Positions 43,532 to 62,851 of a DNA stretch of 64,000 nt are shown in pieces; within the stretch, counting starts at the first letter, position 1; each line of letters begins with the position of its first letter. The notes below the pieces were generated by a model, which made no database searches, was not told where the DNA came from, and worked only from the letters and a program-made list of their open reading frames with translations. The stretch lies in the NCBI RefSeq assembly GCF_054482595.1, contig NZ_CM137008.1. One strand, 5' to 3'. The position numbers were made by a program, and so were the translations under genes.

Positions 43532-43550
43532 ACACCGACCTCAGAAATGC

Positions 43551-43580: not shown

Positions 43581-43595
43581 TTGCACAGTTTGCTT

Positions 43596-43667
43596 TTAGA
43601 TCATCAGGGCAAAAGTACCGGCCCAAACGATGACCATAAAAGAAATGCCCATAAAGAAATATTTCAC
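43596..43667 (-). CDS. ypdK: Small hydrophobic membrane protein (23 aa)
   Basis: Manual translation: GTG-initiated MKYFFMGISFMVIVWAGTFALMI, stop TAA; not in the supplied ORF track (too short); matches the small protein YpdK as recalled. Confidence 0.5.
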   Translation of the reverse strand: MKYFFMGISFMVIVWAGTFALMI

Positions 43668-44022
43668 TTTACATCTCTCCGCGTAATTGCTGTTACGCCT
43701 GAATGACTTCATTACACCTGATACAGTGAGTTGACACCGGGCAAAACGACCTTAAAAGTCCTGTATTTTACCGTGGGCATCACCCCAGAATTCTGAGCTA
43801 AACTGCTCGAGACGGCGCTAATGTACGCCTAAAACTGAAACGAGACAAGAGGCATTTTCTTATTTACTTTTAGTAACTTACAGGTGTCTCATATCGGCGA
43901 CAGTTTAATTTCTGACGGTAATAATTAGATATTCAGCGAAGGAAAAAACCTTAAGAAAAAAGCCATAAAAACCATGAGGTTATTATGGCTTATGTGAGGA
44001 GGTAAAGAGTCAGAGCAGTTTG

Positions 44023-44943: not shown

Positions 44944-45295
44944 AGTTACCTTCTGTAGATACGAATTGTTGTATCGCAGAAGATTCCATGTCGACAGCGG
45001 TACACTCAATTGGTTGGGCCATCATGTACGACAATGGTTCCTGTAAAGAGTGTAAAGACTAGTCAGGACATAACCACGAGGAGCATGAATGCGGTGGCTC
45101 TACTTTATCACTGGCTGACTGCTTTCAGCTACTGATTATTAATCGTGCAAAGTAAATATTTTTCCGTACATAACAGTCTTGCATTTAACATACTGTTTTC
45201 ATTGATGCTTAGCAAAAATTGCCAGAGGTTAAGGATTGTCTTACTATTAAAGTGACTGAAGTTACAGGTTTTTTAGCGCGGCAGGAGGTTGAGCT

Positions 45296-45538
45296 ATGAT
45301 TTATTTATGGATGTTTCTCGCCCTGTGTATTGTCTGCGTAAGCGGCTACATCGGTCAGGTACTGAACGTGGTATCGGCGGTCTCTTCTTTCTTCGGCATG
45401 GTGATCCTCGCTGCACTCATTTATTACTTCACCATGTGGTTAACAGGCGGTAATGAACTGGTGACGGGGATATTTATGTTTCTTGCCCCGGCTTGTGGCT
45501 TGATGATTCGCTTTATGGTGGGGTATGGCAGGCGGTAG
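45296..45538 (+). CDS. yfdY: Small DUF2545 inner membrane protein
   Basis: 80 aa, two TM helices; matches YfdY. Confidence 0.8.
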   Translation: MIYLWMFLALCIVCVSGYIGQVLNVVSAVSSFFGMVILAALIYYFTMWLTGGNELVTGIFMFLAPACGLMIRFMVGYGRR

Positions 45539-45614
45539 TGGGTCAGGATGGCTCATTTGGGCAGGTGTTCACATCAGCATCAGACATGATTGCTCACCTG
45601 CCATGTGACAGACG

Positions 45615-45890
45615 CTATCGCACAGGATGAATAAGATAACTCGCCTTTGTCGGATAAGTGGGCGTGGTTTCTTCTGTGAGGTTTAATGGTGGCGCATCTT
45701 CTCTCATCTTAAACAAAATCGCCTGTGATGGCTGAAATTTTGTAGAGTGAGTTGTCGTCATCGCTGACGTTTTTTCCGTCTCTTTATAGCTCGCCTCACT
45801 ACCACCACCAGAAATAGAAAATGCAAAAACATTGCATGCCATAATAGAGACCAATAAAAATAAGCTAAAAAGCATTAAGTTTACTTTCAT
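45615..45890 (-). CDS. ypdI: Small lipoprotein YpdI
   Basis: 91 aa with lipoprotein signal (LLVSIMAC); matches YpdI. Confidence 0.8.
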   Translation of the reverse strand: MKVNLMLFSLFLLVSIMACNVFAFSISGGGSEASYKETEKTSAMTTTHSTKFQPSQAILFKMREDAPPLNLTEETTPTYPTKASYLIHPVR

Positions 45891-46032
45891 AGAAAGTTAT
45901 CCTGAAAATGGTTCACTGAAAACCTACGACGTTATGGCTGTATTTACATATAATTAATCAGTATTTACATCGATATAATAAATGACATCTCTTTGTGGTA
46001 TATAAGAATAGTTCTCTGTGACAGGAAGCAGA

Positions 46033-46050
46033 TTCCTACAACTGTAAGAT
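46033..46050 (+). promoter_or_regulatory. EvgA box upstream of yfdX
   Basis: TTCCTACA-AC-TGTAAGAT, 17/18 match to the EvgA 18-bp inverted-repeat consensus TTCYTACA-N2-TGTARGAA; a second half-site-like copy at 46073..46090. Confidence 0.6.
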
Positions 46051-46185
46051 TAAAATACTTCTTGCGATAATAACTACAAGTGTAAGATAACCCTTTCAAA
46101 ATGACCGTTGCTCTCTGATTTCTCATTTCATGCTCACCCAATATGATGGCGGCGTTTTCTAAAACTGTTAAAGAATGAGGTAAGT

Positions 46186-46818
46186 ATGAAACGTTTAATT
46201 ATGGCTACGATGGTCACAGCTATTCTGGCATCTTCAACTGTATGGGCTGCTGATAATGCACCGGTAGCGGCACAACAGCAAACTCAGCAAGTTCAGCAAA
46301 CCCAGAAAACGGCAGCAGCAGAGCGTATCTCTGAACAAGGTTTATATGCGATGCGTGACGTGCAGGTAGCGCGCCTGGCTCTGTTTCATGGCGATCCGGA
46401 AAAGGCAAAAGAACTGACCAATGAAGCTTCCGCTTTGTTGTCAGATGACAGTACCGAATGGGCAAAGTTCGCTAAGCCAGGTAAAAAGACCAATCTCAAT
46501 GATGACCAATATATTGTCATTAATGCATCTGTCGGAATTTCTGAGAGTTATGTAGCGACACCCGAAAAAGAAGCCGCGATAAAAATTGCCAATGAAAAAA
46601 TGGCGAAAGGGGATAAAAAGGGCGCAATGGAAGAGCTTCGCCTGGCCGGTGTTGGTGTAATGGAAAACCAATATCTGATGCCGCTTAAACAGACTCGTAA
46701 TGCACTTGCTGATGCGCAGAAACTGCTTGATAAAAAGCAATACTACGAGGCAAACCTGGCGCTTAAAGGTGCGGAAGATGGAATCATCGTCGATAGCGAA
46801 GCACTGTTTGTGAACTAA
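46186..46818 (+). CDS. yfdX: EvgA-regulated periplasmic protein YfdX
   Basis: 210 aa with signal peptide; matches YfdX. Confidence 0.9.
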
Positions 46819-46872
46819 TGCTGACTGGCAGTATATTGAGGTAAAGGATTTAACTCCCTCCAGACGACAATT

Positions 46873-46909
46873 TTTTATGACCACAATACGACAGGTTGTG
46901 GTCATAAAA
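46873..46909. terminator. 14-bp perfect inverted repeat (hairpin) downstream of yfdX
   Basis: ttttatgaccacaa-tacgacagg-ttgtggtcataaaa; could be a terminator or a protein-binding palindrome. Confidence 0.4.
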
Positions 46910-47061
46910 TTATTTGGCGCTCGCTGTTCTATAAACTCGCATTTTATATTCCTCAAAGTAAACCGCAATAATCCCGTGTCATCACAAATCATTTAATATG
47001 TTATATTTTATGGTACGCTTTAAAAAGCGTAATCATACCCTTACTTGTAAATCACCGGCGC

Positions 47062-47079
47062 TTCTTACAGTTGTAAGAA
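47062..47079 (+). promoter_or_regulatory. Perfect EvgA-box palindrome upstream of frc
   Basis: TTCTTACA-GT-TGTAAGAA, 18/18 symmetric match to the EvgA consensus, about 250 bp upstream of the frc start. Confidence 0.55.
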
Positions 47080-47329
47080 TAACATCACAAATGTCGCGAC
47101 TCTCTCTGATTACCACGAACCAATATTTATCATATTCTTCTTTTCGTCCTCACTACTTACCATGCAGAAAGGAATTGGAAGTAGCGATGAAATGATTTTC
47201 AGCACTTGATACAGGAATGTAAAAATATCGAGTGCAGCTACGACGATATTTTGCGGATTATTTATAGAGGCGTTATGCCTTAAATAAACGCTAAATTAAC
47301 ACATATTTAATTAACTAATAGGTATTGCT

Positions 47330-48580
47330 ATGTCAACTCCACTTCAAGGAATTAAAGTTCTCGATTTCACCGGTGTGCAATCTGGCCCATCTTGTACTCA
47401 AATGCTGGCCTGGTTTGGCGCTGACGTTATTAAAATTGAACGTCCCGGCGTTGGTGACGTAACGCGTCACCAGCTGCGAGATATTCCTGATATCGATGCG
47501 CTTTACTTCACCATGCTTAACAGTAACAAACGTTCTATTGAGTTAAATACCAAAACAGCGGAAGGCAAAGAGGTAATGGAAAAGCTGATCCGCGAAGCTG
47601 ATATCTTAGTCGAGAACTTTCATCCAGGGGCCATTGATCACATGGGTTTCACCTGGGAGCATATTCAAGAAATCAATCCACGTCTGATTTTTGGTTCGAT
47701 CAAAGGGTTTGATGAGTGTTCGCCTTATGTGAATGTAAAAGCCTATGAAAACGTTGCTCAGGCAGCGGGTGGCGCGGCATCCACTACGGGTTTTTGGGAC
47801 GGTCCGCCGCTGGTAAGCGCTGCAGCGTTGGGTGACAGCAACACCGGAATGCATTTACTGATCGGTTTACTTGCTGCTTTGCTGCATCGCGAAAAAACGG
47901 GGCGTGGGCAACGAGTCACCATGTCAATGCAGGATGCCGTATTGAACCTTTGCCGCGTGAAATTACGCGACCAGCAGCGTCTCGATAAATTGGGTTATCT
48001 GGAAGAATACCCGCAGTATCCGAATGGCACATTTGGTGATGCAGTTCCCCGCGGAGGTAATGCGGGTGGTGGCGGTCAGCCTGGCTGGATCCTGAAATGT
48101 AAAGGTTGGGAAACCGATCCTAACGCCTATATTTATTTCACTATTCAGGAGCAAAACTGGGAAAACACCTGCAAAGCCATCGGCAAACCAGATTGGATTA
48201 CCGATCCGGCATACAGTACAGCCCATGCCCGACAGCCACATATTTTCGATATTTTTGCTGAAATCGAAAAATACACTGTCACTATTGATAAACATGAAGC
48301 GGTGGCCTATTTGACTCAATTTGATATTCCTTGTGCACCGGTTTTAAGTATGAAAGAAATTTCACTTGATCCCTCTTTGCGCCAAAGTGGCAGTGTTGTC
48401 GAAGTGGAACAACCGTTGCGTGGAAAATATCTGACAGTTGGTTGTCCAATGAAATTCTCTGCCTTTACGCCAGATATTAAAGCTGCGCCGCTATTAGGTG
48501 AACATACCGCTGCTGTATTGCAGGAGCTGGGTTATAGCGACGATGAAATTGCTGCAATGAAGCAAAACCACGCCATCTGA
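47330..48580 (+). CDS. frc: Formyl-CoA:oxalate CoA-transferase (family III CoA transferase)
   Basis: 416 aa; matches Frc (YfdW). Confidence 0.95.
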
Positions 48581-48633
48581 TATTAACGGGGGCTTCTGGC
48601 TCCCAATTTATAAAAATTTCGAGGTTATTAATC

Positions 48634-50328
48634 ATGTCAGATCAACTTCAAATGACAGATGGTATGCATATCATCGTTGAAGCATTAAAACAGAATAATA
48701 TTGACACTATTTATGGTGTTGTAGGTATTCCTGTGACGGATATGGCGCGCCATGCCCAGGCGGAAGGCATTCGTTATATTGGTTTTCGTCATGAGCAGTC
48801 GGCAGGCTATGCCGCTGCGGCAAGCGGTTTTCTTACCCAAAAACCAGGGATCTGCCTGACAGTGTCTGCGCCAGGATTCCTCAATGGTTTGACCGCATTG
48901 GCCAACGCAACGGTAAATGGTTTTCCGATGATCATGATTAGCGGCTCCAGCGACCGCGCGATCGTCGACCTACAGCAAGGTGATTATGAAGAGCTGGACC
49001 AAATGAATGCGGCAAAACCGTATGCCAAAGCAGCATTTCGCGTTAATCAGCCGCAGGATCTTGGCATTGCATTGGCACGCGCTATCCGGGTCTCAGTATC
49101 GGGTCGCCCTGGCGGAGTTTATCTTGATTTGCCAGCAAATGTCCTGGCCGCGACGATGGAAAAAGACGAAGCGTTAACCACGATTGTAAAAGTTGAAAAT
49201 CCGTCGCCAGCATTATTGCCATGCCCGAAGTCAGTCACTAGCGCAATTTCGCTTTTAGCAAAAGCTGAACGGCCATTAATTATCCTTGGCAAAGGCGCGG
49301 CGTATTCACAAGCTGACGAACAGCTTCGTGAATTTATTGAAAGTGCCCAGATTCCATTCCTGCCAATGTCTATGGCGAAAGGGATCCTCGAAGATACGCA
49401 TCCACTTTCTGCGGCAGCTGCGCGTTCGTTTGCCCTGGCAAATGCTGACGTTGTCATGCTTGTTGGTGCACGACTGAATTGGTTACTGGCACACGGTAAA
49501 AAAGGATGGGCGGCAGATACACAGTTTATTCAACTGGATATTGAACCGCAGGAAATTGACAGCAACCGCCCCATTGCTGTGCCAGTCGTTGGCGATATTG
49601 CATCCAGTATGCAAGGTATGCTGGCAGAACTGAAACAAAACACATTTACGACTCCACTGGTATGGCGCGATATTTTAAATATCCACAAGCAGCAAAATGC
49701 ACAAAAAATGCATGAAAAATTGAGTACAGATACCCAACCATTAAATTACTTTAATGCATTGAGTGCTGTGCGCGATGTATTGCGTGAGAACCAGGATATT
49801 TATTTAGTTAATGAAGGGGCAAATACCCTGGATAATGCACGAAATATTATTGATATGTATAAACCACGTCGTCGTCTGGATTGTGGCACCTGGGGTGTCA
49901 TGGGCATCGGTATGGGCTATGCCATCGGTGCTAGCGTGACTTCTGGTTCTCCGGTTGTCGCCATTGAAGGTGATAGTGCTTTTGGTTTCAGTGGGATGGA
50001 AATTGAAACGATTTGTCGATATAACCTGCCGGTGACAATCGTTATTTTTAATAATGGCGGCATCTACAGAGGAGACGGTGTTGATCTCAGTGGCGCTGGT
50101 GCACCATCACCAACGGATCTGTTGCACCATGCAAGGTATGACAAATTAATGGATGCGTTTCGTGGCGTTGGCTATAACGTCACCACGACAGATGAACTTC
50201 GTCATGCTTTAACCACCGGTATTCAGTCGCGCAAACCGACCATTATTAACGTGGTCATCGACCCTGCAGCAGGAACTGAAAGTGGCCATATTACCAAACT
50301 GAACCCAAAACAAGTCGCTGGTAATTAA
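48634..50328 (+). CDS. oxc: Oxalyl-CoA decarboxylase (ThDP-dependent)
   Basis: 564 aa; ThDP-binding motif GDSAFGFSGMEIETICRYNLP; matches Oxc (YfdU). Confidence 0.95.
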   Translation: MSDQLQMTDGMHIIVEALKQNNIDTIYGVVGIPVTDMARHAQAEGIRYIGFRHEQSAGYAAAASGFLTQKPGICLTVSAPGFLNGLTALANATVNGFPMIMISGSSDRAIVDLQQGDYEELDQMNAAKPYAKAAFRVNQPQDLGIALARAIRVSVSGRPGGVYLDLPANVLAATMEKDEALTTIVKVENPSPALLPCPKSVTSAISLLAKAERPLIILGKGAAYSQADEQLREFIESAQIPFLPMSMAKGILEDTHPLSAAAARSFALANADVVMLVGARLNWLLAHGKKGWAADTQFIQLDIEPQEIDSNRPIAVPVVGDIASSMQGMLAELKQNTFTTPLVWRDILNIHKQQNAQKMHEKLSTDTQPLNYFNALSAVRDVLRENQDIYLVNEGANTLDNARNIIDMYKPRRRLDCGTWGVMGIGMGYAIGASVTSGSPVVAIEGDSAFGFSGMEIETICRYNLPVTIVIFNNGGIYRGDGVDLSGAGAPSPTDLLHHARYDKLMDAFRGVGYNVTTTDELRHALTTGIQSRKPTIINVVIDPAAGTESGHITKLNPKQVAGN

Positions 50329-50397
50329 ATACTGACATCGTCTCCTCTTGCCAACTCATTATGCGATGGTGAGGGGACCCTTATCGGAAATACTATT

Positions 50398-51342
50398 ATG
50401 CTAACATTTTTTATTGGCGATTTATTGCCTATTATCGTAATCATGCTGTTGGGTTATTTTAGCGGCAGACGAGAAACATTTTCAGAAGATCAAGCTCGGG
50501 CATTTAATAAACTGGTATTAAACTACGCGCTTCCTGCGGCTCTATTTGTATCTATTACCCGGGCAAACAGGGAAATGATTTTTGCGGACACTCGTCTGAC
50601 CCTTGTATCACTTGTGGTTATTGTCGGATGTTTCTTTTTCTCCTGGTTCGGTTGCTACAAATTTTTTAAACGTACTCATGCAGAAGCAGCTGTATGTGCA
50701 TTAATTGCAGGTTCACCTACTATTGGATTCCTGGGATTTGCAGTTCTCGATCCTATTTATGGTGATTCCGTATCAACAGGTTTAGTGGTAGCAATTATTT
50801 CTATTATTGTTAACGCAATTACTATTCCTATTGGTCTGTATTTGCTGAATCCTTCCTCAGGAGCGGATGGTAAGAAGAATAGTAATCTGAGCGCATTAAT
50901 TTCTGCGGCAAAGGAGCCTGTAGTATGGGCACCTGTTCTGGCAACGATCCTGGTGCTGGTTGGGGTAAAAATTCCGGCAGCATGGGACCCAACCTTTAAT
51001 CTGATTGCGAAGGCTAACTCAGGGGTAGCGGTATTCGCTGCGGGGTTGACTCTGGCTGCACATAAATTCGAGTTCAGTGCCGAAATTGCTTATAACACCT
51101 TCCTGAAGCTGATTCTGATGCCACTGGCGCTGCTTCTTGTTGGTATGGCATGTCATCTGAACAGCGAACATCTGCAGATGATGGTACTGGCAGGCGCATT
51201 ACCGCCGGCATTCTCCGGAATCATTATTGCCAGCCGGTTTAATGTCTACACCCGCACTGGTACAGCGTCATTGGCTGTGAGCGTACTGGGTTTTGTCGTC
51301 ACGGCTCCCTTGTGGATTTATGTCAGTCGACTGGTTTCATAA
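50398..51342 (+). CDS. yfdV: AEC-family putative transporter
   Basis: 314 aa polytopic membrane protein; matches YfdV. Confidence 0.9.
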
Positions 51343-51370
51343 TTAATCATGTTATTGATTTTACATAAAT

Positions 51371-51401
51371 GCCGAAGTGTCTTTTCACCTTCGGCTTTTT
51401 T
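51371..51401 (+). terminator. Terminator/attenuator-like hairpin between yfdV and yfdE
   Basis: gccgaag-N11-cttcggc followed by tttttt, ending 15 nt upstream of the yfdE start. Confidence 0.45.
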
Positions 51402-51415
51402 CAAGGCATAAGCAA

Positions 51416-52561
51416 ATGACAAATAATGAAAGCAAAGGGCCGTTTGAAGGCTTATTAGTTATCGATATGACACATGTCCTTAATGGACCTTTCGGAACTC
51501 AACTTCTTTGTAATATGGGCGCAAGGGTAATTAAAGTTGAGCCACCAGGTCATGGTGATGATACCCGCACATTTGGTCCCTATGTGGATGGACAGTCACT
51601 CTATTACAGTTTTATTAATCATGGTAAAGAGAGTGTGGTTCTTGATTTAAAGAATGATCACGATAAAAGTATATTTATAAATATGCTTAAACAAGCTGAT
51701 GTATTAGCTGAGAATTTTCGCCCAGGTACAATGGAAAAACTGGGGTTTTCATGGGAAAGGTTACAAGAAATCAACCCGCGCCTCATATATGCTTCATCGT
51801 CAGGTTTCGGACATACCGGTCCGCTAAAAGATGCTCCTGCCTACGATACCATCATTCAGGCAATGAGCGGGATAATGATGGAAACAGGGTACCCTGATGC
51901 TCCGCCAGTGCGTGTTGGTACCTCTCTTGCGGATCTATGCGGCGGTGTTTATTTATTCAGCGGAATAGTGAGTGCACTTTATGGCCGCGAAAAGAGCCAA
52001 AGAGGGGCGCATGTCGATATAGCGATGTTTGATGCCACGCTGAGTTTTCTGGAGCATGGTCTGATGGCATATATTGCGACAGGGAAGTCACCACAACGCC
52101 TGGGAAATCGCCATCCCTACATGGCACCTTTTGATGTTTTCGATACTCAGGATAAGCCGATTACGATTTGTTGTGGTAATGACAAGCTTTTTTCTGCGTT
52201 ATGCCAGGCACTGGAGCTTACGGAACTGGTTAATGATCCCAGATTTAGCAGCAATATTTTACGCGTACAAAACCAGGCTATTCTTAAACAATATATTGAG
52301 CGGACGTTAAAAACGCAGGCAGCTGAAGTTTGGTTAGCCAAAATACATGAAGTCGGTGTGCCCGTCGCGCCGTTATTAAGTGTGGCTGAGGCCATTAATT
52401 TGCCACAAACTCAGGCGAGAAATATGTTGATTGAAGCCGGGGGAATAATGATGCCGGGTAATCCGATAAAAATCAGTGGCTGCGCGGACCCGCATGTTAT
52501 GCCGGGAGCGGCAACGCTCGACCAGCATGGGGAGCAAATTCGCCAGGAGTTCTCATCATAA
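51416..52561 (+). CDS. yfdE: Acetyl-CoA:oxalate CoA-transferase (family III CoA transferase)
   Basis: 381 aa from internal ATG (MTNNESKGPFEGLLVIDMTH...); paralogous to frc. Confidence 0.9.
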   Translation: MTNNESKGPFEGLLVIDMTHVLNGPFGTQLLCNMGARVIKVEPPGHGDDTRTFGPYVDGQSLYYSFINHGKESVVLDLKNDHDKSIFINMLKQADVLAENFRPGTMEKLGFSWERLQEINPRLIYASSSGFGHTGPLKDAPAYDTIIQAMSGIMMETGYPDAPPVRVGTSLADLCGGVYLFSGIVSALYGREKSQRGAHVDIAMFDATLSFLEHGLMAYIATGKSPQRLGNRHPYMAPFDVFDTQDKPITICCGNDKLFSALCQALELTELVNDPRFSSNILRVQNQAILKQYIERTLKTQAAEVWLAKIHEVGVPVAPLLSVAEAINLPQTQARNMLIEAGGIMMPGNPIKISGCADPHVMPGAATLDQHGEQIRQEFSS

Positions 52562-52582
52562 ATGTAAGATGTGCTGGTAAAT

Positions 52583-52610
52583 AGCTCCCACATTTGAACA
52601 TTGTGGGAGC
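52583..52610. terminator. Hairpin between convergent yfdE and evgS
   Basis: agctcccaca-tttgaacat-tgtgggagc. Confidence 0.4.
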
Positions 52611-52616
52611 CGCTAT

Positions 52617-55600
52617 TTAGTCATTTTGCTGACAGAAAACAGCAATCTCCTGGTCCAGCTCTGCAATGTGTTCTTTTACAGAGTTCAGCAACTGAAGAAT
52701 TTCAGGCTTACTGTCATCTGAAACAGGTGTTATTTCTAACTGATGGCTAATATTAATCAACTTTTGCAAATTCAGGATGTTAGCCGCACCGTGGATGCGA
52801 TGAATACATTGATGGAAAGTTCTGTTATCGCCAGCTTCTAGTGCATGAAACGCAGCGGGTAGATCTTTATGCGTTTCATGCTGGAAAGTCATGAGAATCT
52901 CCTGCATCAGTTGTAGATCGTTCGCCGTATTATTTTTCAGGGCTTCGATATCAAGGTGGCGATACTGAGGTGCAATATGCGCAACCTGGTGTAACTGACT
53001 TAAATGTGTTTTCAGTACATCCAGGGTCAACGGTTTGAACAAACATAAGTTCATGCCGCAATTTAACCCTTTTTCACGTTCGTTAGCCTGTGCGTTGGCT
53101 GTAAGCCCCCAGATGGGTAAGGAAGAATTTTGCTCACGGAGTTTGCGAGTCAACTCAAAACCATCCATATTCGGCATATTAACGTCAGTAATAAGCAGAT
53201 CATAATGTTGCATACTGACTTTGTGTAGCGCTTGCACACCATCAGTGGCTTCATCAACATCATATCCTAATAGATTTAGCTGGCGTTTGAGTAATAGCCT
53301 GTTGGTCGGATGATCATCCGCGATTAATATGCTCAACTTTTCAGGTAGTGTGATGGGTTGTTCTGCTTTTGCCTCGACAGTCGCCACTTGTTGGATAATT
53401 TCTACCGGGATTGTGATCGTAAATGTTGTTCCTATGCCTGGATGACTTTCTAATGACAAATCACCCTGCATGTTTTTAATTAATTCTTTGCAGATCATTA
53501 AGCCTAAACCAGAACCTGTTTGCTGACGACCTGCACTTGTTTGGCTATAGCGTTTAAACAGTTGTTGTTGTTCTTCCTGCGATAATCCACTTCCAGAATC
53601 CATAATCGTCATTTTGATTACAGCGTGGTTGTCATCAATGTGAACCAGGGAGGTCGTAATTTTTACTGCCCCCTCGGTGGTAAATTTGAGAGCATTACTC
53701 AGTAAATTTGATAAGACCTGCTTAAACGCCTGAGGGTCGATCTTAACCAGGTAATGTTCAGGAAACGTACTGCTGCAACTTAATGCGATCGATTTGCTTG
53801 CAGCAATCGCACCGAAAGAGTGACAAGTGTTCTGGACTAAAGTAGGGATATCGACCCATTGTGGTTGAAGTTGATAGTTACCCGATTCAATTTTGTCGAC
53901 ATCAAGGATTTCACCAATTAAGCCGAGGAGTGATTGTCCGGTGGCGTAGGCAAGTGAAATCGCCTCCACCCGTTGCTCCTTGCTAAGACCAGAACCCGAC
54001 AGAAGTTCCAGGAAGCCCATAATGGAGCTTATTGGTGTTCTTATTTCGTGACTCATTGTTGCCAGAAACTGACTTTTTGCGACAGTTGCATTGATCGCTT
54101 TATTTCTCTCTACTTCGAGTGCATGAATTAAATCACGCGTCTCGGTAATATCTTGCCAACCACAAATATAAACAGCATGATCGCTGGCTGGCAGATTGCA
54201 TAATGTATGCCAGTGATTAATGCATCTTTTCTCGATGCCATTATCAATTTCAAATACCTGTGTGTATATTGTTCGATTTTCTTTCGTTTCTGCTGTGACT
54301 TCATGCGCATTAGAAAAAACATCTTTAAAGGGTGATTCACTGTTTTCTAATGGCAACATTGCATTTTTGTAGTAATCAGCAGTGAAATAATGTTCAAATG
54401 CACTATTGTGACTAATGACATTACCTTGCCAGTTTACAACATAAGTTGGATTCGGTAAGGAGTCCGAGAGCGCTTTCCGGAATGATATTTGGTTTTCTAA
54501 ATCACCCTGAATGACTTTACGACGACGAACTGAGCGTAACAGGTAGAATCCCCATAAAAGGCTACTGCCAACTAATAAAACGGATAATGTCGTAACAATA
54601 TAAAATTGCTCGCTATAGAGGTCCCATGTGTCAATGGTCACATTGGGCATTTTAATCCATTTTTCGGTCAGGCGCAGAACTTCGCTTGGGGGGATTGCAT
54701 TCAGTGCTTTATTAATAATATCCTTAAGTTCCGGTTCTCCGCGAGGAAAAGCGAACGAAAGCGATGCATTCGGAACGCCGGGAATAAGAAAATGATACAG
54801 TTCATTAGGATAGTAATGGTCGATCATGTAACGCGAATTTAACTGTGTCGCGACCAGAGCATCAAGTTCGCCTTCCTTGACCTTGTGAAATGCAGCGCTG
54901 GCGTTATCGACTTTTATCCACTCTACCTCCGGATACATCTCTTTTAATTGCGAATGAAGCTCATAATAATATGGAATGGCAACTTTCATTCCTTTTTTTA
55001 ATGTTTGTTCACTGTCAGGCGCTTTTTGCATGACAAAAACGTAAGGCGTTGTTATGAAGGCTTCAGCAAATAAAACATTATTTTCTCTATCTTCACTATA
55101 AATAGCACCGGGTAATATATCCCATCCGCCGGGATTCAGCTGTGTTCCAGCATGGATATTGTGTGAAACGGTGATCGGAGAAAAATTTAAACCTGTTTGC
55201 AAAGTAATAATATTAAGAATATCCCCCATAACGCCCCGAACCGAGCCATTTTCATCCGTCATAGAATAGGGAGGGGAGTAAGGATTTTCCAGCACCTTTA
55301 AATCGGGATGCTGCTTAATCCATTGTTTTTCATGTTCAGTGAGTTCTAATGGTTTGTTCAGAAAGGCCAGGTTTCCTGTATCAAGCCAATTTTGTGATAC
55401 TTCATAGCGAACTTCATTTGTCAAAGCATCAACAAATCGATTGAGTACTTCATTAAGAACGACAGATTCTTTTCTGGTCAAGAAAAAATTATATTGACGC
55501 GGTGAGTTATAATATTTCACTACATTTAAGGAGTGAGTGAAATAGCGGGAAATCATACTGCTGGTAATGATGTTACTACCAATAAAGTAATCATTCTGTC

Positions 55601-56210
55601 CGGCTGAGACGGATGCTAATGCCTGATATAAATTTGTAAAAGAGATAATTGTTGCTTTTGGAAATGATTGATGAATTACCTCGTCAGGGGGATAATTTGC
55701 TACTCGAGCAATATTTACTGGTTTTGATGAGGTAAGCGGTCGCATTGAATCGTGAAGGGTGGTGACCAGCGCCGGAAAGGTAATTATCAGTGGTTTGGTT
55801 GCAGCAATGTCATCATTAAGAGGCGGCGAAGCAACTAAATGTGATAACACTATATCGACTTCACCTTCTTCCAGCGCGTCCATTGCTTTTTGATGATCGG
55901 CGTATTCCCGGAGTGTTAATTTGATATTTAACGCTCTTTTTAAAAGATTTAAATAATCAGCATTAATACCACGCACCCGTTGCTGCGAATCGGTATGCAA
56001 CAACGTAGCCGTTTGGGACTTGTGTACTGCAATCACAAGATTTTTTTTGCTCGCTAACCAACGTAATTCCTTGTTGCTCAGACGTAGTGGATCAAGTGTG
56101 ACACGGTTGTTACTACTGATGCCACGATATTCGATGTAATCTTCGTCTGCGAAACTTATGGTCGACCAAAGACCACAACAGAGAAGAAAAATATAGGGTA
56201 AAAACTTCAT
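52617..56210 (-). CDS. evgS: Hybrid sensor histidine kinase EvgS (two periplasmic binding domains, PAS, HK, receiver, HPt)
   Basis: 1197 aa; H-box SHEIRTPISSIMG, receiver ILIADDHPTNRLLL; matches EvgS. Confidence 0.95.
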   Translation of the reverse strand: MKFLPYIFLLCCGLWSTISFADEDYIEYRGISSNNRVTLDPLRLSNKELRWLASKKNLVIAVHKSQTATLLHTDSQQRVRGINADYLNLLKRALNIKLTLREYADHQKAMDALEEGEVDIVLSHLVASPPLNDDIAATKPLIITFPALVTTLHDSMRPLTSSKPVNIARVANYPPDEVIHQSFPKATIISFTNLYQALASVSAGQNDYFIGSNIITSSMISRYFTHSLNVVKYYNSPRQYNFFLTRKESVVLNEVLNRFVDALTNEVRYEVSQNWLDTGNLAFLNKPLELTEHEKQWIKQHPDLKVLENPYSPPYSMTDENGSVRGVMGDILNIITLQTGLNFSPITVSHNIHAGTQLNPGGWDILPGAIYSEDRENNVLFAEAFITTPYVFVMQKAPDSEQTLKKGMKVAIPYYYELHSQLKEMYPEVEWIKVDNASAAFHKVKEGELDALVATQLNSRYMIDHYYPNELYHFLIPGVPNASLSFAFPRGEPELKDIINKALNAIPPSEVLRLTEKWIKMPNVTIDTWDLYSEQFYIVTTLSVLLVGSSLLWGFYLLRSVRRRKVIQGDLENQISFRKALSDSLPNPTYVVNWQGNVISHNSAFEHYFTADYYKNAMLPLENSESPFKDVFSNAHEVTAETKENRTIYTQVFEIDNGIEKRCINHWHTLCNLPASDHAVYICGWQDITETRDLIHALEVERNKAINATVAKSQFLATMSHEIRTPISSIMGFLELLSGSGLSKEQRVEAISLAYATGQSLLGLIGEILDVDKIESGNYQLQPQWVDIPTLVQNTCHSFGAIAASKSIALSCSSTFPEHYLVKIDPQAFKQVLSNLLSNALKFTTEGAVKITTSLVHIDDNHAVIKMTIMDSGSGLSQEEQQQLFKRYSQTSAGRQQTGSGLGLMICKELIKNMQGDLSLESHPGIGTTFTITIPVEIIQQVATVEAKAEQPITLPEKLSILIADDHPTNRLLLKRQLNLLGYDVDEATDGVQALHKVSMQHYDLLITDVNMPNMDGFELTRKLREQNSSLPIWGLTANAQANEREKGLNCGMNLCLFKPLTLDVLKTHLSQLHQVAHIAPQYRHLDIEALKNNTANDLQLMQEILMTFQHETHKDLPAAFHALEAGDNRTFHQCIHRIHGAANILNLQKLINISHQLEITPVSDDSKPEILQLLNSVKEHIAELDQEIAVFCQQND

Positions 56211-56214
56211 GTGG

Positions 56215-56829
56215 TTAGCCGATTTTGTTACGTTGTGCGAATGTGTAAAGATCCATCAGTGATTTACATTCTAATTTTTCCATCAGGCGACTTTTATAAG
56301 TGCTGACAGTTTTGTTGCTGATGAACATTTTTTCAGCAATGTCATTATTATCCTTGCCATCAAGAATATAGCGCATGACACTAATTTCTTGTTTCGATAA
56401 GGAGTCGAGTTTTTGCTGGTCGGACGTTAAACTTCCAACAAACCGGTTGAGAGAGAAGGGGAAATAGCAGTAGCCATTTTTTGCAGCTTCAATAGCCGCA
56501 ATGATATTGTTCATGCCTTCTTTTTTACTCACGAAACCATTAGCGCCAGCATCAGCACAATGTTTCCCGTAAAAATGGTCATTTTTAGCGGAGACGATAA
56601 TAATAATTCCGCTATATTGGCGCTTCCTCAGCGTTTCTAACACCTGGATACCGTTAACTCCGGGGATATCGACATCAATGATGACGATATCAGGCTTAAG
56701 TGTTTCCACCCGCTGAACGGCACTTCCGCCTTCAGTCAACTCTGCTAAGATTTCAATATCGTTTTTGATCAATAAATTACGAATTGCTGCGATAGCAAGA
56801 GGATGGTCATCAATAATTATTGCGTTCAT
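56215..56829 (-). CDS. evgA: Response regulator EvgA (NarL/FixJ family)
   Basis: 204 aa; MNAIIIDDHPLAIAAIRNLL receiver plus LuxR-type HTH. Confidence 0.95.
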   Translation of the reverse strand: MNAIIIDDHPLAIAAIRNLLIKNDIEILAELTEGGSAVQRVETLKPDIVIIDVDIPGVNGIQVLETLRKRQYSGIIIIVSAKNDHFYGKHCADAGANGFVSKKEGMNNIIAAIEAAKNGYCYFPFSLNRFVGSLTSDQQKLDSLSKQEISVMRYILDGKDNNDIAEKMFISNKTVSTYKSRLMEKLECKSLMDLYTFAQRNKIG

Positions 56830-57053
56830 AGATTATTCCCTTTGCAATGAAGCATCTCCCTTCTCCCTGTAGTAATACAGACATAAGGCATCATCTCATT
56901 TTCTCAATAAAAATAAGAAAATTTGAGCTTCCTTTAAGATAATTCGACAAGTATACCATATAAATAGTCGGCATATATGAAATGTCAACAATAAAATCAG
57001 GGATTGTACCGATGATTTATAGTTTCACATTAGCACTATAAGTCTTCTCACTA

Positions 57054-57071
57054 ATCCTACAGGCGTAAGAA
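57054..57071 (+). promoter_or_regulatory. EvgA box in the evgA-emrK divergent intergenic region
   Basis: ATCCTACA-GG-CGTAAGAA, 16/18 match to the EvgA consensus. Confidence 0.55.
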
Positions 57072-57244
57072 TTGTATTGCAAAAGCCACGGTTTAGTCCT
57101 CTGTTGTTTTTTTTGCACCTCATTTAAATTAGGCCTCCAACGTTCCTGGGATAATGTGCAACACATGCACTGTGTTTGATATGAAGAATGAATACTCTTT
57201 TCATTCAATTCATAAATTTCATCTATGCGAAATGAGAGATAAAA

Positions 57245-58408
57245 GTGGAACAGATTAATTCAAATAAAAAACATTCTAACAGAAGAAAATACTTTTCTTT
57301 ATTGGCGGTAGTTTTATTTATTGCGTTTTCAGGTGCCTATGCCTATTGGTCAATGGAATTAGAAGACATGATTAGTACAGATGACGCCTATGTCACGGGG
57401 AATGCAGATCCAATTTCTGCACAAGTCTCAGGTAGTGTCACTGTCGTTAATCATAAAGATACGAACTACGTTCGACAAGGTGACATTTTAGTTTCACTGG
57501 ATAAAACTGATGCCACTATCGCACTCAATAAAGCTAAAAATAATCTGGCAAATATTGTTCGGCAAACGAATAAACTGTACTTACAGGATAAACAATACAG
57601 TGCCGAAGTCGCTTCAGCACGTATTCAGTATCAACAATCTTTAGAAGATTATAACCGTCGTGTGCCTTTAGCGAAGCAGGGGGTTATTTCAAAAGAAACG
57701 CTGGAGCATACCAAAGATACGTTAATAAGTAGCAAAGCGGCATTGAATGCCGCTATCCAGGCTTATAAAGCGAATAAAGCTTTAGTAATGAACACACCAT
57801 TAAACCGTCAGCCACAAGTCGTGGAAGCGGCGGATGCAACCAAAGAAGCCTGGTTGGCGCTTAAACGTACGGATATTAAGAGTCCGGTTACCGGCTATAT
57901 TGCCCAGAGAAGTGTTCAGGTCGGCGAAACAGTGAGCCCCGGACAATCGTTAATGGCTGTCGTACCGGCACGTCAAATGTGGGTTAATGCCAACTTTAAA
58001 GAAACACAACTCACGGATGTACGGATTGGTCAATCGGTCAATATTATCAGCGATCTTTATGGTGAAAATGTTGTGTTTCATGGTCGGGTGACAGGGATCA
58101 ATATGGGAACCGGCAATGCGTTCTCCTTATTACCTGCACAAAATGCGACAGGGAACTGGATCAAAATCGTTCAGCGTGTACCGGTTGAAGTTTCTCTTGA
58201 TCCAAAAGAACTCATGGAACACCCCTTGCGCATTGGTTTATCGATGACTGCAACTATTGATACGAAGGACGAAGACATTGCTGAGATGCCTGATCTGGCT
58301 TCAACCGTGACCTCCATGCCTGCTTATACCAGTAAGGCTTTAGTTATCGATACCAGTCCGATAGAAAAAGAAATTAGCAACATTATTTCGCATAATGGAC
58401 AACTTTAA
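57245..58408 (+). CDS. emrK: Multidrug efflux membrane fusion protein (EmrA paralogue)
   Basis: 387 aa; N-terminal TM anchor then coiled-coil/HlyD fold; matches EmrK. Confidence 0.93.
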   Translation: MEQINSNKKHSNRRKYFSLLAVVLFIAFSGAYAYWSMELEDMISTDDAYVTGNADPISAQVSGSVTVVNHKDTNYVRQGDILVSLDKTDATIALNKAKNNLANIVRQTNKLYLQDKQYSAEVASARIQYQQSLEDYNRRVPLAKQGVISKETLEHTKDTLISSKAALNAAIQAYKANKALVMNTPLNRQPQVVEAADATKEAWLALKRTDIKSPVTGYIAQRSVQVGETVSPGQSLMAVVPARQMWVNANFKETQLTDVRIGQSVNIISDLYGENVVFHGRVTGINMGTGNAFSLLPAQNATGNWIKIVQRVPVEVSLDPKELMEHPLRIGLSMTATIDTKDEDIAEMPDLASTVTSMPAYTSKALVIDTSPIEKEISNIISHNGQL

Positions 58409-59946
58409 TGGCAATCACTAAATCAACTCCGGCACCATTAACCGGTGGGACGTTATGGTGCGTCACTATTGCATTGTCATTAGCGACGTTTATGCAAATG
58501 TTGGATTCCACTATTTCTAACGTCGCAATACCGACAATATCTGGCTTTCTGGGAGCGTCAACAGACGAAGGCACCTGGGTTATCACCTCGTTTGGCGTAG
58601 CAAATGCCATTGCGATCCCTGTTACCGGCAGGCTGGCACAAAGAATAGGCGAATTAAGGTTATTTTTACTTTCAGTCACTTTTTTTTCGCTGTCTTCCTT
58701 AATGTGTAGTTTATCGACCAATCTTGATGTTCTGATATTTTTTAGAGTCGTTCAGGGGTTAATGGCGGGGCCGTTAATTCCACTGTCACAGAGTTTATTA
58801 TTAAGGAATTATCCACCAGAAAAAAGGACATTTGCTCTGGCATTATGGTCAATGACCGTGATTATCGCTCCGATATGTGGGCCGATATTGGGCGGCTATA
58901 TTTGTGATAACTTTAGCTGGGGTTGGATATTTTTAATCAATGTCCCTATGGGGATTATCGTCCTGACATTATGCTTAACCTTACTTAAAGGAAGAGAAAC
59001 TGAGACTTCACCGGTCAAAATGAATCTACCAGGACTGACCCTGTTAGTGCTCGGTGTTGGTGGCTTGCAAATTATGCTTGATAAAGGGCGCGATCTGGAT
59101 TGGTTCAACTCGAGTACAATAATAATATTAACAGTAGTATCAGTTATTTCTCTGATCTCTTTAGTTATTTGGGAGTCGACCTCAGAGAACCCGATTCTTG
59201 ATCTCAGTTTGTTTAAGTCCCGTAATTTCACCATTGGTATAGTGAGTATCACATGCGCGTATTTATTTTACTCTGGAGCGATCGTCCTTATGCCGCAGTT
59301 ACTCCAGGAAACGATGGGGTATAATGCGATATGGGCCGGACTTGCTTATGCGCCCATCGGCATCATGCCACTATTAATTTCACCTTTGATAGGACGTTAT
59401 GGCAACAAAATAGACATGCGGTTGTTAGTGACATTTAGTTTTTTGATGTATGCGGTTTGCTATTACTGGCGTTCTGTGACATTTATGCCAACGATTGATT
59501 TTACAGGCATCATTTTGCCACAGTTTTTCCAGGGATTCGCCGTTGCCTGTTTCTTTTTACCCTTAACAACGATTTCGTTTTCAGGGTTGCCAGATAATAA
59601 ATTTGCCAATGCCTCGAGTATGAGTAATTTTTTTCGTACCTTGTCAGGATCAGTTGGTACGTCGTTGACAATGACGCTGTGGGGACGACGCGAATCGTTA
59701 CACCATAGTCAGTTGACAGCAACCATCGATCAATTTAACCCCGTGTTTAATTCATCGTCACAAATTATGGATAAATACTATGGTTCGCTTTCAGGAGTTC
59801 TTAATGAAATTAATAATGAAATAACCCAGCAGTCACTTTCTATTTCTGCAAATGAGATTTTCCGTATGGCGGCTATTGCTTTTATCTTACTTACGGTTTT
59901 GGTGTGGTTTGCGAAACCGCCGTTTACAGCGAAAGGCGTTGGGTGA
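58408..59946 (+). CDS. emrY: MFS multidrug efflux pump (EmrB paralogue, 14-TM)
   Basis: 512 aa; start overlaps emrK stop; matches EmrY. Confidence 0.93.
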   Translation: MAITKSTPAPLTGGTLWCVTIALSLATFMQMLDSTISNVAIPTISGFLGASTDEGTWVITSFGVANAIAIPVTGRLAQRIGELRLFLLSVTFFSLSSLMCSLSTNLDVLIFFRVVQGLMAGPLIPLSQSLLLRNYPPEKRTFALALWSMTVIIAPICGPILGGYICDNFSWGWIFLINVPMGIIVLTLCLTLLKGRETETSPVKMNLPGLTLLVLGVGGLQIMLDKGRDLDWFNSSTIIILTVVSVISLISLVIWESTSENPILDLSLFKSRNFTIGIVSITCAYLFYSGAIVLMPQLLQETMGYNAIWAGLAYAPIGIMPLLISPLIGRYGNKIDMRLLVTFSFLMYAVCYYWRSVTFMPTIDFTGIILPQFFQGFAVACFFLPLTTISFSGLPDNKFANASSMSNFFRTLSGSVGTSLTMTLWGRRESLHHSQLTATIDQFNPVFNSSSQIMDKYYGSLSGVLNEINNEITQQSLSISANEIFRMAAIAFILLTVLVWFAKPPFTAKGVG

Positions 59947-60053
59947 TGGTAAAAGCAGGGGGTTATAGCGGGTAAGACCGGGGATCTTAAGTCTGCGCCA
60001 TCGGCAGCATCGCTCACCCAGGGAAAGGATTGCGATGCTGCGTTGAAACGTTA

Positions 60054-61382: not shown

Positions 61383-61399
61383 AGTACGTCTCTTTGCGC

Positions 61400-61630
61400 T
61401 TAGATGATAAATGACAGCAGGAATGTGCCCGCCAGAGCGACGACTGAAGCGATAAATGTCGCTGTCGTATAGTATTTAAATGTTTCATTGAGCGTAGCGC
61501 CGCAATATTGCTTCACCAGCCAGAAAAGCGAGTCCGTAACGATCGTGCAGCCAATTGCGCCTGAACCGATAGCAATCGCAATAATTTCCGGGCTGATGTC
61601 GGGATACAGCGGCAGCACAATGATCCATAT
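61400..61630 (-). pseudogene. dsdX: 5'-truncated remnant of D-serine permease dsdX (GntP family), C-terminal ~75 codons only
   Basis: Minus-strand frame reads ...[76 protein letters not shown] then stop 17 nt upstream of dsdA; frame closes with a stop at 61631..61633, and unrelated sequence follows; a full dsdX would be ~445 codons. Confidence 0.7.
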
Positions 61631-62844: not shown

Positions 62845-62851
62845 TATTATG

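What the first reader, a model, noticed from the sequence alone, without database searches (positions are those of the whole stretch)
44950..60000. AT-rich acid-response/efflux block with short and hydrophobic genes
From the lpxP upstream region through yfdY, ypdI, yfdX, frc-oxc-yfdVE, evgSA and emrKY, the sequence is visibly more AT-rich than the cys/pts/lig housekeeping block, and its intergenic regions are long and AT-rich (45891..46185, 46819..47329, 56830..57244). This composition is typical of horizontally acquired, H-NS-silenced DNA. The judgement is by eye, not a computed GC value.
Basis: partly seen in the sequence, partly recalled or inferred. Interest (0 to 1): 0.35.

Follow-up and report, generated by a model that had tools for sequence, protein, structure and literature searches.

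The report
Ancient AT-rich evgAS acid-response island
The AT-rich stretch is real: it is the well-known E. coli evgAS/emrKY/oxalate acid-response locus, a 14.5-kb block of anciently imported DNA whose low GC content, H-NS binding and foreign origin are already published, so the finding is correct but ordinary.

Summary
Observation confirmed. Window 44944-60053 has 42.8% GC, against 51.7% (left flank) and 50.6% (right flank). A maximum-likelihood change-point scan puts the breaks at 44921 and 59900. Median GC3 is 0.41 for the block genes and 0.57 for flank genes (p=2e-5), and GC2 does not differ.

Interpretation supported, but already known. The genes are ypdI, yfdX-frc-oxc-yfdV-yfdE, evgSA and emrKY of E. 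coli. The block is present in 5425 of 5426 complete genomes. Published work already calls evgAS low-GC, absent from relatives and H-NS-bound.

What I add:
- **True insert:** it is 45539-60004. yfdY is core. E. albertii has dsdA-342 bp-yfdY-lpxP at this site, and Salmonella and Citrobacter have pgt genes there.
- **The block moves as a unit:** the nine genes yfdX to emrY recur as one syntenic cassette in Yersinia, a Rahnella-like genome and Klebsiella variicola (including an IS-bounded plasmid copy), each time in a different context.
- **Evidence for transfer:** E. coli-Yersinia cassette proteins are 82-96% identical, while core LpxP is about 68% identical to Yersiniaceae.
- **Regulatory spacers:** the three long AT-rich spacers hold all four EvgA-box matches in the 64 kb, and this layout travels with the cassette.

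Low interest.

The parts
44921..59900 (.). Low-GC compositional segment (GC 0.427), as delimited by the change-point scan
   Evidence: 1-kb and 300-bp profiles
45539..60004 (.). Synteny-defined E. coli-lineage insert (14.47 kb) between the convergent 3' ends of yfdY and dsdA. E. albertii has 342 bp of unrelated AT-rich DNA at this position.
   Evidence: BLASTN of L005 against the window, junction sequences, intact YfdY in all species
45296..45538 (+). yfdY: 80-aa hydrophobic protein.
45615..45890 (-). ypdI: 91-aa lipoprotein gene at the island's left edge (GC 0.40). It is not part of the cassette in other genera and is only 73% identical in cryptic Escherichia L004.
45891..46185 (.). ypdI-yfdX spacer (295 bp, GC 0.336) with EvgA-box matches at 46033-46050 (1 mismatch) and 46071-46088 (3 mismatches)
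   Evidence: EvgA inverted repeat upstream of yfdX per PMC3720670
46186..46818 (+). yfdX: periplasmic YfdX-family protein, first gene of the cassette
   Evidence: PF10938 in the syntenic copies
46819..47329 (.). yfdX-frc spacer (511 bp, GC 0.354). It contains a conserved terminator-like hairpin (46873-46909), the promoter TTTATA-18-AATAAT (46943-46972), and a perfect EvgA box (47062-47079) that opens a ~50-bp block conserved in Yersinia.
   Evidence: (I12, I4); H-NS SELEX flag and the same promoter in PMC3946193
47330..52561 (+). frc-oxc-yfdV-yfdE: formyl-CoA transferase, oxalyl-CoA decarboxylase, AEC-type transporter and acetyl-CoA:oxalate CoA-transferase (GC 0.45-0.47, GC3 0.40-0.43)
   Evidence: functions per PMC3720670
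52617..56829 (-). evgA-evgS operon: NarL-type response regulator and hybrid sensor kinase (GC 0.40-0.41)
56830..57244 (.). Divergent evgA-emrK spacer (415 bp, GC 0.337) with an EvgA box at 57054-57071. The spacer stays long and AT-rich (389-437 bp, GC 0.31-0.37) in every lineage that has the cassette.
   Evidence: H-NS SELEX flag in PMC3946193; H-NS gel shift on the evgA promoter in PMC2984483
57245..59946 (+). emrK-emrY: MFS tripartite efflux pump (adaptor and permease), GC 0.42
60005..60040 (-). dsdA terminator hairpin (CAGCATCGC...GCGATGCTG). Homology with E. albertii resumes here, which marks the right junction.
52557..57162 (.). Sub-segment (complete evgAS with its promoter region and EvgA box) that also occurs on conjugative E. 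coli plasmids at 97.4% identity. In the one plasmid inspected it is flanked by IS1 on one side and by a recombinase/ISKpn19-qnrS1 module on the other.

Best explanation
The block is an anciently acquired genomic island. A self-contained acid-response cassette of about 13.8 kb (yfdX, frc-oxc-yfdV-yfdE, evgAS, emrKY), together with the small gene ypdI, was inserted between the convergent 3' ends of yfdY and dsdA. This happened in the lineage leading to E. coli and its close cryptic clades, after the split from E. albertii, and the block has since become fixed.

It keeps a base composition about 9 GC points below the chromosome. The difference is concentrated at synonymous sites. That composition, and above all the three long spacers of 34-35% GC, makes it a substrate for the nucleoid protein H-NS, which binds and damps its promoters.

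The cassette carries its own activator. At mildly acidic pH, EvgS phosphorylates EvgA. EvgA then binds 18-bp inverted repeats in those same spacers and switches on yfdX, frc-oxc-yfdVE and emrKY.

What is shown here: the composition, the boundaries, the empty site, cassette mobility and divergence, and the positions of the EvgA boxes. What is taken from the literature: H-NS binding and repression, EvgA activation and the enzyme functions. What is inferred: that EvgA acts by overcoming H-NS, and the direction and date of the transfer.
For: Composition: (GC 0.428 vs 0.517/0.506; GC3 0.41 vs 0.57, p=2e-5; GC2 equal; change points at 44921 and 59900).

Boundaries and empty site: (E. albertii has dsdCXA-342 bp-yfdY-lpxP, and YfdY is intact everywhere). 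Salmonella and Citrobacter have pgtP/pgtB/pgtA at the site.

Fixation in E. coli: (5425 of 5426 genomes). Island dS against cryptic Escherichia L004 is 0.27-0.56, the same as the flanks at 0.18-0.65.

Mobility: the identical gene order occurs in Yersinia next to arsRBC, in a Rahnella-like genome next to smpB and a D5-primase gene, and IS-bounded on K. variicola plasmid CP103421.1.

Divergence: E. coli-Yersinia identities are Frc 96%, EvgA 94%, YfdV 93%, Oxc 91.5%, EmrY 91% and EvgS 82%, with dS 0.78-1.74. Core LpxP against Serratia is 68% with saturated dS.

Regulation: all 4 EvgA-box matches in 64 kb lie in the three spacers (0.5 expected by chance). The boxes are conserved in the Yersinia and Rahnella-like copies. 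EvgA repeats before yfdX and yfdW are described in PMC3720670, and the emrK and yfdX promoters are directly EvgA-dependent (PMC5706723).

H-NS: PMC3946193, PMC2984483, PMC8678522, PMC10294691, PMC7641745.
Against: - No integrase, tRNA gene or flanking direct repeats mark the edges, so the insertion mechanism is unknown.
- The empty site rests on one E. albertii assembly. The rest of that genome, and E. fergusonii, were not searched, so a clean deletion in E. albertii cannot be excluded.
- The distance benchmark to Yersiniaceae rests on a single core gene (lpxP).
- The cassette is not AT-rich in every host (48-51.5% GC in the Rahnella-like and Klebsiella copies), so low GC is a property of the E. 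coli/Yersinia branch rather than of the cassette as such.
- The H-NS evidence comes from K-12 publications. I could not open the primary ChIP tables.
- evgS is measurably transcribed in K-12 (PMC10294691), so the block is not fully silent.
Confidence: 0.87

Rival explanations
1. The block is ancestral and vertically inherited. Its patchy distribution reflects repeated loss (E. albertii, Salmonella, Citrobacter and others), and its AT-richness is maintained by selection for H-NS-dependent regulation rather than by foreign origin.
For: The block is fixed in E. coli and co-diverges with its flanks in a cryptic Escherichia clade. It can be lost cleanly: L003 carries a deletion that joins window 45308 to 61751. 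No mobility genes lie at its edges. The AT-rich evgA-emrK spacer is conserved even where the coding GC is about 51%, which shows that some of the AT-richness is functional.
Against: The cassette sits at different chromosomal sites in Yersinia and the Rahnella-like genome, and on an IS-bounded plasmid segment in K. variicola. E. coli-Yersinia cassette dS (0.8-1.7) is comparable to E. coli-Salmonella core dS, whereas core divergence to Yersiniaceae is saturated. The site next to yfdY holds different cargo in each genus.
Confidence: 0.07
2. The low GC is a by-product of weak expression (little codon bias) or of membrane-protein amino-acid composition, with no bearing on origin.
For: CAI is lower in the block (0.241 vs 0.329). 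Several block genes encode hydrophobic proteins.
Against: GC2, the position most tied to amino-acid composition, does not differ (0.403 vs 0.406, p=0.76), and the deficit is in GC3 and GC1. The soluble proteins Frc, Oxc, YfdE and EvgA have equally low GC3 (0.40-0.43). Flank genes with equally low CAI (yfeO 0.21, pdeA 0.25, mntH 0.28, ypdE 0.28) keep GC3 at 0.56-0.63.
Confidence: 0.03
3. The island is a mosaic of separate acquisitions rather than one event. ypdI, and possibly emrKY, joined the evgAS/yfdXWUVE core independently.
For: ypdI is absent from every cassette copy outside Escherichia, and it is far more diverged (73%) than its neighbours (96-99%) in L004. The K. variicola plasmid copy lacks emrKY. 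GC is stepped: 0.45-0.47 for frc-yfdE and 0.40-0.42 for evgSA-emrKY.
Against: The nine genes yfdX to emrY keep the same order and orientation in Yersinia, the Rahnella-like genome and a second K. variicola contig. The same GC step between sub-blocks is seen inside the Yersinia copy. On the plasmid, the missing emrKY coincides with an IS insertion.
Confidence: 0.3

Closest known systems
E. coli K-12 evgAS-emrKY / yfdXWUVE (frc-oxc) locus at about 2.48 Mb
   Same: It is the same locus. The gene order and the annotated products are the same. The published properties are low GC, absence from close relatives and H-NS binding (PMC7641745), plus EvgA-activated yfdX, yfdWUVE and emrKY (PMC3720670, PMC5706723).
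   Different: The window comes from a non-K-12 strain (100% identical to W619 and others). In it the adjacent dsdX/dsdC genes are replaced by csc sucrose genes. The exact insert limits (45539-60004) and the exclusion of yfdY were worked out here.
Klebsiella KvgAS / KvhAS clusters (EvgAS homologues next to yfdX and hde genes)
   Same: They have a BvgS-type hybrid kinase plus a NarL-type regulator, adjacent yfdX, strain-variable presence and suspected horizontal origin (PMC6394985; PMC5706723). The K. variicola copies found here carry the full evgAS-yfdE-yfdV-oxc-frc-yfdX synteny.
   Different: EvgS identity is only 55%. Cassette GC is about 51%, not 43%. The copies are plasmid-borne and IS-bounded, or flanked by slp.
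E. coli acid fitness island (slp-gadA) and other H-NS-bound xenogeneic islands such as Salmonella SPI-2 with SsrAB
   Same: It is an AT-rich, lineage-restricted block that encodes stress or virulence functions together with its own regulator. H-NS represses it and a dedicated activator switches it on. This comparison rests on established knowledge and on PMC7641745.
   Different: The locus and the gene content differ. There is no tRNA or integrase association here. In the Rahnella-like and K. variicola genomes, slp and hdeA/hdeD-type genes flank the evg cassette, which links the two modules physically outside E. coli.
Bordetella BvgAS
   Same: It is the founding member of this sensor architecture: periplasmic SBP_bac_3 domains, HisKA, HATPase, receiver and Hpt (Pfam list). 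EvgAS was named after it (PMC9496106).
   Different: It is a distant homologue in a beta-proteobacterium that controls virulence, and it has no linked oxalate or efflux genes.

Membership tests
Horizontally acquired genomic island | Base composition and codon usage differ from the host chromosome | tested here: met
   GC 0.428 vs 0.517/0.506; GC3 0.41 vs 0.57 (p=2e-5); CAI lower (p=0.002); change points at 44921 and 59900
Horizontally acquired genomic island | Absent from the orthologous site in close relatives (empty site) | tested here: met
   E. albertii has dsdA-342 bp-yfdY-lpxP. Salmonella and Citrobacter have pgt genes next to yfdY. Limits: one genome per species, and only 10 kb on either side of lpxP was examined.
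Horizontally acquired genomic island | Closer to sequences in distant taxa than vertical descent allows, and/or found in different genomic contexts | tested here: met
   Yersinia cassette proteins are 82-96% identical (dS 0.8-1.7), whereas LpxP against Serratia is 68% with saturated dS. The contexts are arsRBC, smpB with a D5-primase gene, and an IS-bounded plasmid segment.
Horizontally acquired genomic island | Mobility hallmarks at the borders (tRNA gene, integrase, flanking direct repeats) | tested here: not met
   No terminal direct repeats and no tRNA or other Rfam hit in 43500-62000. No integrase is annotated there. This feature is common in islands but not obligatory for old ones.
H-NS-bound (xenogeneically silenced) region | AT-rich DNA with very AT-rich tracts that can nucleate H-NS | tested here: met
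   11.1% of 100-bp windows have GC below 0.35, against 1.4% and 0% in the flanks. The three spacers are at GC 0.336-0.354.
H-NS-bound (xenogeneically silenced) region | H-NS occupancy in vitro or in vivo | not testable with these tools
   Literature only: SELEX sites in the evgA-emrK and yfdX-frc spacers (PMC3946193); a gel shift on the evgA promoter (PMC2984483); an evgS-internal region bound in ChIP-seq (PMC10294691); ChIP-chip as cited by PMC7641745. The primary tables are not held.
H-NS-bound (xenogeneically silenced) region | Derepression when hns is deleted | not testable with these tools
   Reported for emrKY (Nishino and Yamaguchi 2004, as summarised in PMC8678522). For evgA, PMC2984483 lists it among regulators whose expression H-NS modulates. 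I found no data for frc-oxc-yfdVE.
EvgA regulon (directly EvgA-activated operons) | An 18-bp inverted repeat (TTCYTACA-N2-TGTARGAA; consensus recalled from Masuda and Church 2003) upstream of the operon | tested here: met
   4 matches in 64 kb (0.5 expected), all in the three spacers, with a perfect one at 47062. The repeat finder also detected the motif de novo (I4). It is conserved in the Yersinia and Rahnella-like copies. Repeats before yfdX and yfdW are noted in PMC3720670.

The most novel reading that the evidence does not exclude
The nine genes yfdX-frc-oxc-yfdV-yfdE-evgS-evgA-emrK-emrY form a portable acid-response module. The module carries its own sensor and regulator and its own EvgA-box spacers, and it has moved as a unit among Enterobacterales families: Escherichia, Yersinia frederiksenii/vastinensis, a Rahnella-like genome, K. 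variicola plasmids, and probably Enterobacter cancerogenus and Winslowiella. This contradicts the 2017 statement (PMC5706723) that evgAS has no close orthologues outside E. coli. A sub-fragment (evgAS alone) is being captured today by IS1 onto conjugative qnrS1 plasmids. That capture could change regulator dosage for efflux and acid resistance in clinical strains.
Probability: 0.6. Interest if true: 0.35.

Novelty: already known. Interest (0 to 1): 0.18.

Why it matters
The locus controls inducible acid resistance, and part of efflux-mediated drug tolerance, in E. coli and Shigella. That it is low-GC, H-NS-bound, imported DNA is textbook-level for evgAS, so confirming it changes nothing.

Three modest additions came out of the check:
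- A base-level definition of the insert, which excludes yfdY.
- Evidence that the whole nine-gene block, including its regulatory spacers, travels as one cassette between bacterial families.
- Plasmid-borne evgAS copies next to qnrS1.

The last two could interest people who study how regulatory modules spread. They would need proper phylogenetics and expression work.

Tried and rejected
- **Rfam scan** of 43500-62000 at E<=0.1 gave no RNA family.
- **Edge repeats.** The search for direct or inverted repeats at the island edges found only short chance-level pairs and no att-like repeats.
- **Primary H-NS ChIP tables** (Kahramanoglou 2011, Grainger 2006) have no supplementary files held. Nishino and Yamaguchi 2004 is not held. 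The H-NS evidence is therefore second-hand.
- **Literal search for the EvgA consensus string** in papers returned nothing useful. The consensus I used is from memory. It is supported by the de novo palindrome pair I4 and by PMC3720670.
- **H-NS high-affinity motif** TCGATAAATT (from memory) is only 1.8-fold denser in the island (2.2 vs 1.2 per kb). That much is expected from AT content alone, so I did not use it as evidence.
- **'Block spacers are longer in general'** was tested and rejected.
- **Coverage of the genome-contig scan.** It returned neither E. fergusonii nor Yersinia lpxP, so those comparisons are missing.

Full report
**What the window is.** The window is E. coli chromosome. Positions 38950-64000 are identical, base for base, to strain W619 (NZ_CP122503.1), and the flagged 15 kb is 100% identical to several genomes. 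It runs opposite to K-12 orientation. The RefSeq annotation gives:
- lpxP 44023-44943 (-)
- yfdY 45296-45538 (+)
- ypdI 45615-45890 (-)
- yfdX 46186-46818 (+)
- frc 47330-48580, oxc 48634-50328, yfdV 50398-51342, yfdE 51416-52561 (all +)
- evgS 52617-56210 (-), evgA 56215-56829 (-)
- emrK 57245-58408, emrY 58408-59946 (both +)
- dsdA 60054-61382 (-)

All 54 annotated CDSs are intact ORFs on the window.

**Checking the observation.** GC is 0.428 for 44944-60053, against 0.517 to the left and 0.506 to the right. Every 1-kb bin from 45001 to 60000 lies at 0.39-0.47. A three-segment maximum-likelihood scan of the whole window, run without reference to the finding, puts the breaks at 44921 and 59900. 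Its 2dLL is 372, against at most 144 in 30 shuffles of 1-kb blocks.

Per gene, comparing 11 block genes with 43 flank genes:
- Median GC3 is 0.407 vs 0.574 (p=2e-5).
- GC1 is 0.508 vs 0.607 (p=7e-4).
- GC2 is 0.403 vs 0.406 (p=0.76).
- CAI is 0.241 vs 0.329 (p=0.002). They give sensible values for ptsH (0.63), crr (0.60) and gltX (0.56).
- The leave-one-out likelihood under the flank codon model is worse (p=2e-4).

Because the deficit sits at synonymous positions and not at GC2, amino-acid or membrane-protein composition cannot explain it. Flank genes with equally low CAI keep GC3 at 0.56-0.63, so low expression cannot explain it either.

Two details need correcting:
1. Only the three named spacers are long and very AT-rich (295, 511 and 415 bp; GC 0.336-0.354). 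Block spacers as a class are not longer than flank spacers.
2. yfdY has core-like GC3 (0.62).

**Where the foreign segment really starts and ends.** I fetched 80 loci around LpxP relatives and mapped all window proteins onto them.
- In E. albertii the order is dsdC-dsdX-dsdA, then 342 bp (GC 0.34), then yfdY-lpxP.
- BLASTN aligns that locus to window 61617-60032 and 45528-43582, with nothing in between.
- Inspection of the junctions shows that homology runs through the dsdA terminator hairpin (window 60005-60040) on one side and up to the yfdY stop codon on the other.
- YfdY is an intact 80-aa protein in E. coli, E. albertii, Citrobacter and Salmonella.

The insert is therefore 45539-60004 (14.47 kb), lying between two convergent gene ends. 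Citrobacter and Salmonella keep yfdY-lpxP-alaC-ypdAB, but next to yfdY they carry pgtP, pgtB and pgtA (NCBIfam equivalogs). Enterobacter and Lelliottia lack yfdY as well. The position next to yfdY thus holds different cargo in each genus. No direct repeats, tRNA gene or integrase mark the edges.

**Age.** The block is in 5425 of 5426 complete E. coli genomes, and 5386 of them hold at least 80% of it. In a divergent Escherichia genome (L004, collinear at 91% nucleotide identity), island genes show dS 0.27-0.56 against the window. That matches the flanking core genes at 0.18-0.65. The island was therefore already present in the common ancestor of these two lineages. E. albertii core genes are at dS of about 1.0. 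The simplest reading is a gain after the E. albertii split and before the radiation of E. coli and its close clades. Loss also happens: Escherichia sp. MOD1-EC7003 (L003) carries a clean deletion that joins window 45308 to 61751.

**The block moves as a unit.** EvgS has one huge 98% cluster (33,752 sequences). Identity then drops to 82%, 64% and 54-58%. Context look-ups for these relatives, followed by tblastn, show the same nine genes in the same order and orientation: emrY-emrK / evgA-evgS / yfdE-yfdV-oxc-frc-yfdX. The contexts are all different:
- between a yiaVW-like pair and arsRBC (L084);
- next to smpB, a D5-primase-like gene and slp on one side, with hdeD/hdeA-type genes on the other (L085, L086);
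- IS-bounded and lacking emrKY on Klebsiella variicola plasmid CP103421.1 (L087);
- on another K. variicola contig with slp (L088).

Exact-sequence look-ups name L084's flanking proteins and its EvgA as Yersinia (frederiksenii/vastinensis). L085's SmpB falls in a Rahnella/Rouxiella/Hafnia cluster. EvgA proteins in the same 90% cluster occur in Enterobacter cancerogenus and Winslowiella. ypdI is not part of any of these copies.

E. coli-Yersinia identities are Frc 96%, EvgA 94%, YfdV 93%, Oxc 91.5%, EmrY 91%, YfdE 89%, YfdX 84%, EmrK 83.5% and EvgS 82%. dS is 0.78-1.74 and third-position identity is 54-65%. That is the level of E. coli-Salmonella/Citrobacter core genes (dS 1.1-2.15). In contrast, LpxP against Serratia (Yersiniaceae) is 68% identical, with saturated dS and 41% third-position identity. 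This is direct evidence of transfer between families, independent of composition. It also disagrees with the 2017 statement that no close evgAS orthologues exist outside E. coli (PMC5706723).

Cassette GC varies by lineage: 0.413 in Yersinia (flanks 0.456-0.474), 0.482 in the Rahnella-like genome and 0.51 in Klebsiella. The strong AT bias therefore belongs to the E. coli/Yersinia branch.

**How it works.** The pattern TTCYTACANNTGTARGAA (the EvgA consensus as I recall it from Masuda and Church 2003) matches four times in the 64 kb at up to 3 mismatches, where 0.5 matches are expected by chance. All four lie in the three long spacers: 46033 and 46071 (upstream of yfdX), 47062 (perfect, upstream of frc) and 57054 (between evgA and emrK). 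The repeat finder detected the same palindrome de novo (I4).

PMC3720670 describes EvgA-bound inverted repeats before yfdX and yfdW, and an EvgA-activated yfdXWUVE operon. PMC5706723 uses the emrK and yfdX promoters as direct EvgA reporters.

The layout is conserved. Yersinia has boxes in all three equivalent spacers, and the Rahnella-like copy has one in its evgA-emrK spacer. That divergent spacer stays 389-437 bp long at 31-37% GC in every lineage, even where the coding GC is about 51%.

The alignment of the 511-bp yfdX-frc spacer with Yersinia shows a conserved terminator-like hairpin (46873-46909) and a conserved block of about 50 bp that begins at the EvgA box. The promoter TTTATA-18-AATAAT at 46943-46972 is the one Shimada et al. 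list for frc.

**H-NS, from the literature only:**
- Genomic SELEX marks H-NS sites in the emrK-evgA and frc-yfdX spacers, but not in yfdY-lpxP (PMC3946193). This fits my boundary.
- H-NS shifts the evgA promoter (PMC2984483).
- hns deletion derepresses emrKY (PMC8678522).
- An intragenic site in evgS lies in an H-NS ChIP-seq region (PMC10294691).
- PMC7641745 states that evgA and evgS show low GC, absence from close relatives and H-NS binding.

As a sequence proxy, 11.1% of 100-bp windows in the island have GC below 0.35, against 1.4% and 0% in the flanks. That EvgA acts by displacing or overriding H-NS is my inference.

**Verdict.** Both were already in the literature for the core of the block. 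The left edge should move to 45539, and the acquisition is ancient rather than recent. The cassette-level mobility, and the plasmid-borne evgAS copies, are the only parts that may be under-reported. Interest is low.

Noticed in passing
window 52557-57162; locus L083 (NZ_CP018207.1 46193-50798): A complete evgS-evgA operon with its promoter region and EvgA box occurs at 97.4% identity (evgS dS 0.09) on at least ten conjugative E. coli plasmids of 57-122 kb. The end points are the same in most of them. In pMRSN346647_113.1 it lies between an IS1 copy and a recombinase/ISKpn19-qnrS1 module, and the acid-response gene ariR/ymgB sits between two IS1 copies nearby.
   Followed up: partly
window 61400-64000: dsdX is reduced to a 219-bp remnant, and dsdC is replaced by csc sucrose-utilisation genes (a LacI-type regulator, then cscA and further genes). 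This is the known variable argW-dsd/csc region, which abuts the island on its right.
   Followed up: no
window 60054-61382 versus L005 7691-9019: dsdA of E. coli and E. albertii differ by a dS of only 0.22, while the adjacent core genes lpxP and yfdY are at about 1.0. This suggests a much more recent exchange of the dsd locus between the two species.
   Followed up: no
L003 (Escherichia sp. MOD1-EC7003), junction at 5081-5088: A clean 16.4-kb deletion joins window 45308 (codon 5 of yfdY) to 61751 (upstream of cscR) with an 8-bp overlap. It removes yfdY, the whole island and dsdA. A natural island-less Escherichia therefore exists.
   Followed up: partly
L085 4901-5485 and 19361-20308; L088 5422-5964: In the Rahnella-like and K. 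variicola genomes the evg cassette is flanked by slp and by hdeD/hdeA-type genes. In E. coli those genes belong to the separate acid fitness island. In the Rahnella-like genome the whole assembly lies next to smpB and a D5-primase-like gene, which is a typical island integration site.
   Followed up: no
window 45615-45890 (ypdI); L004 9021: ypdI is only 73% identical in cryptic Escherichia L004, while its neighbours are 96-99% identical. It is absent from every cassette copy outside Escherichia. Across E. coli genomes, 804 of 5422 records have their best match to the ypdI region at 90-95% identity.
   Followed up: partly
(all cassette copies): Divergence within the cassette is very uneven. Frc, YfdV and EvgA are conserved (79-96%), whereas the EvgS sensor, YfdX and EmrK evolve fast (55-84%). 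This agrees with the reported weak purifying selection on evgS within E. coli.
   Followed up: no
window 19991-20332 and 22731-23123: Two small genes in the left flank are also AT-rich: a FlxA-like gene (GC 0.424, GC3 0.40) next to the RtT/tRNA-Lys-Val cluster, and yfeD (GC3 0.43). They may be small foreign insertions of their own.
   Followed up: no
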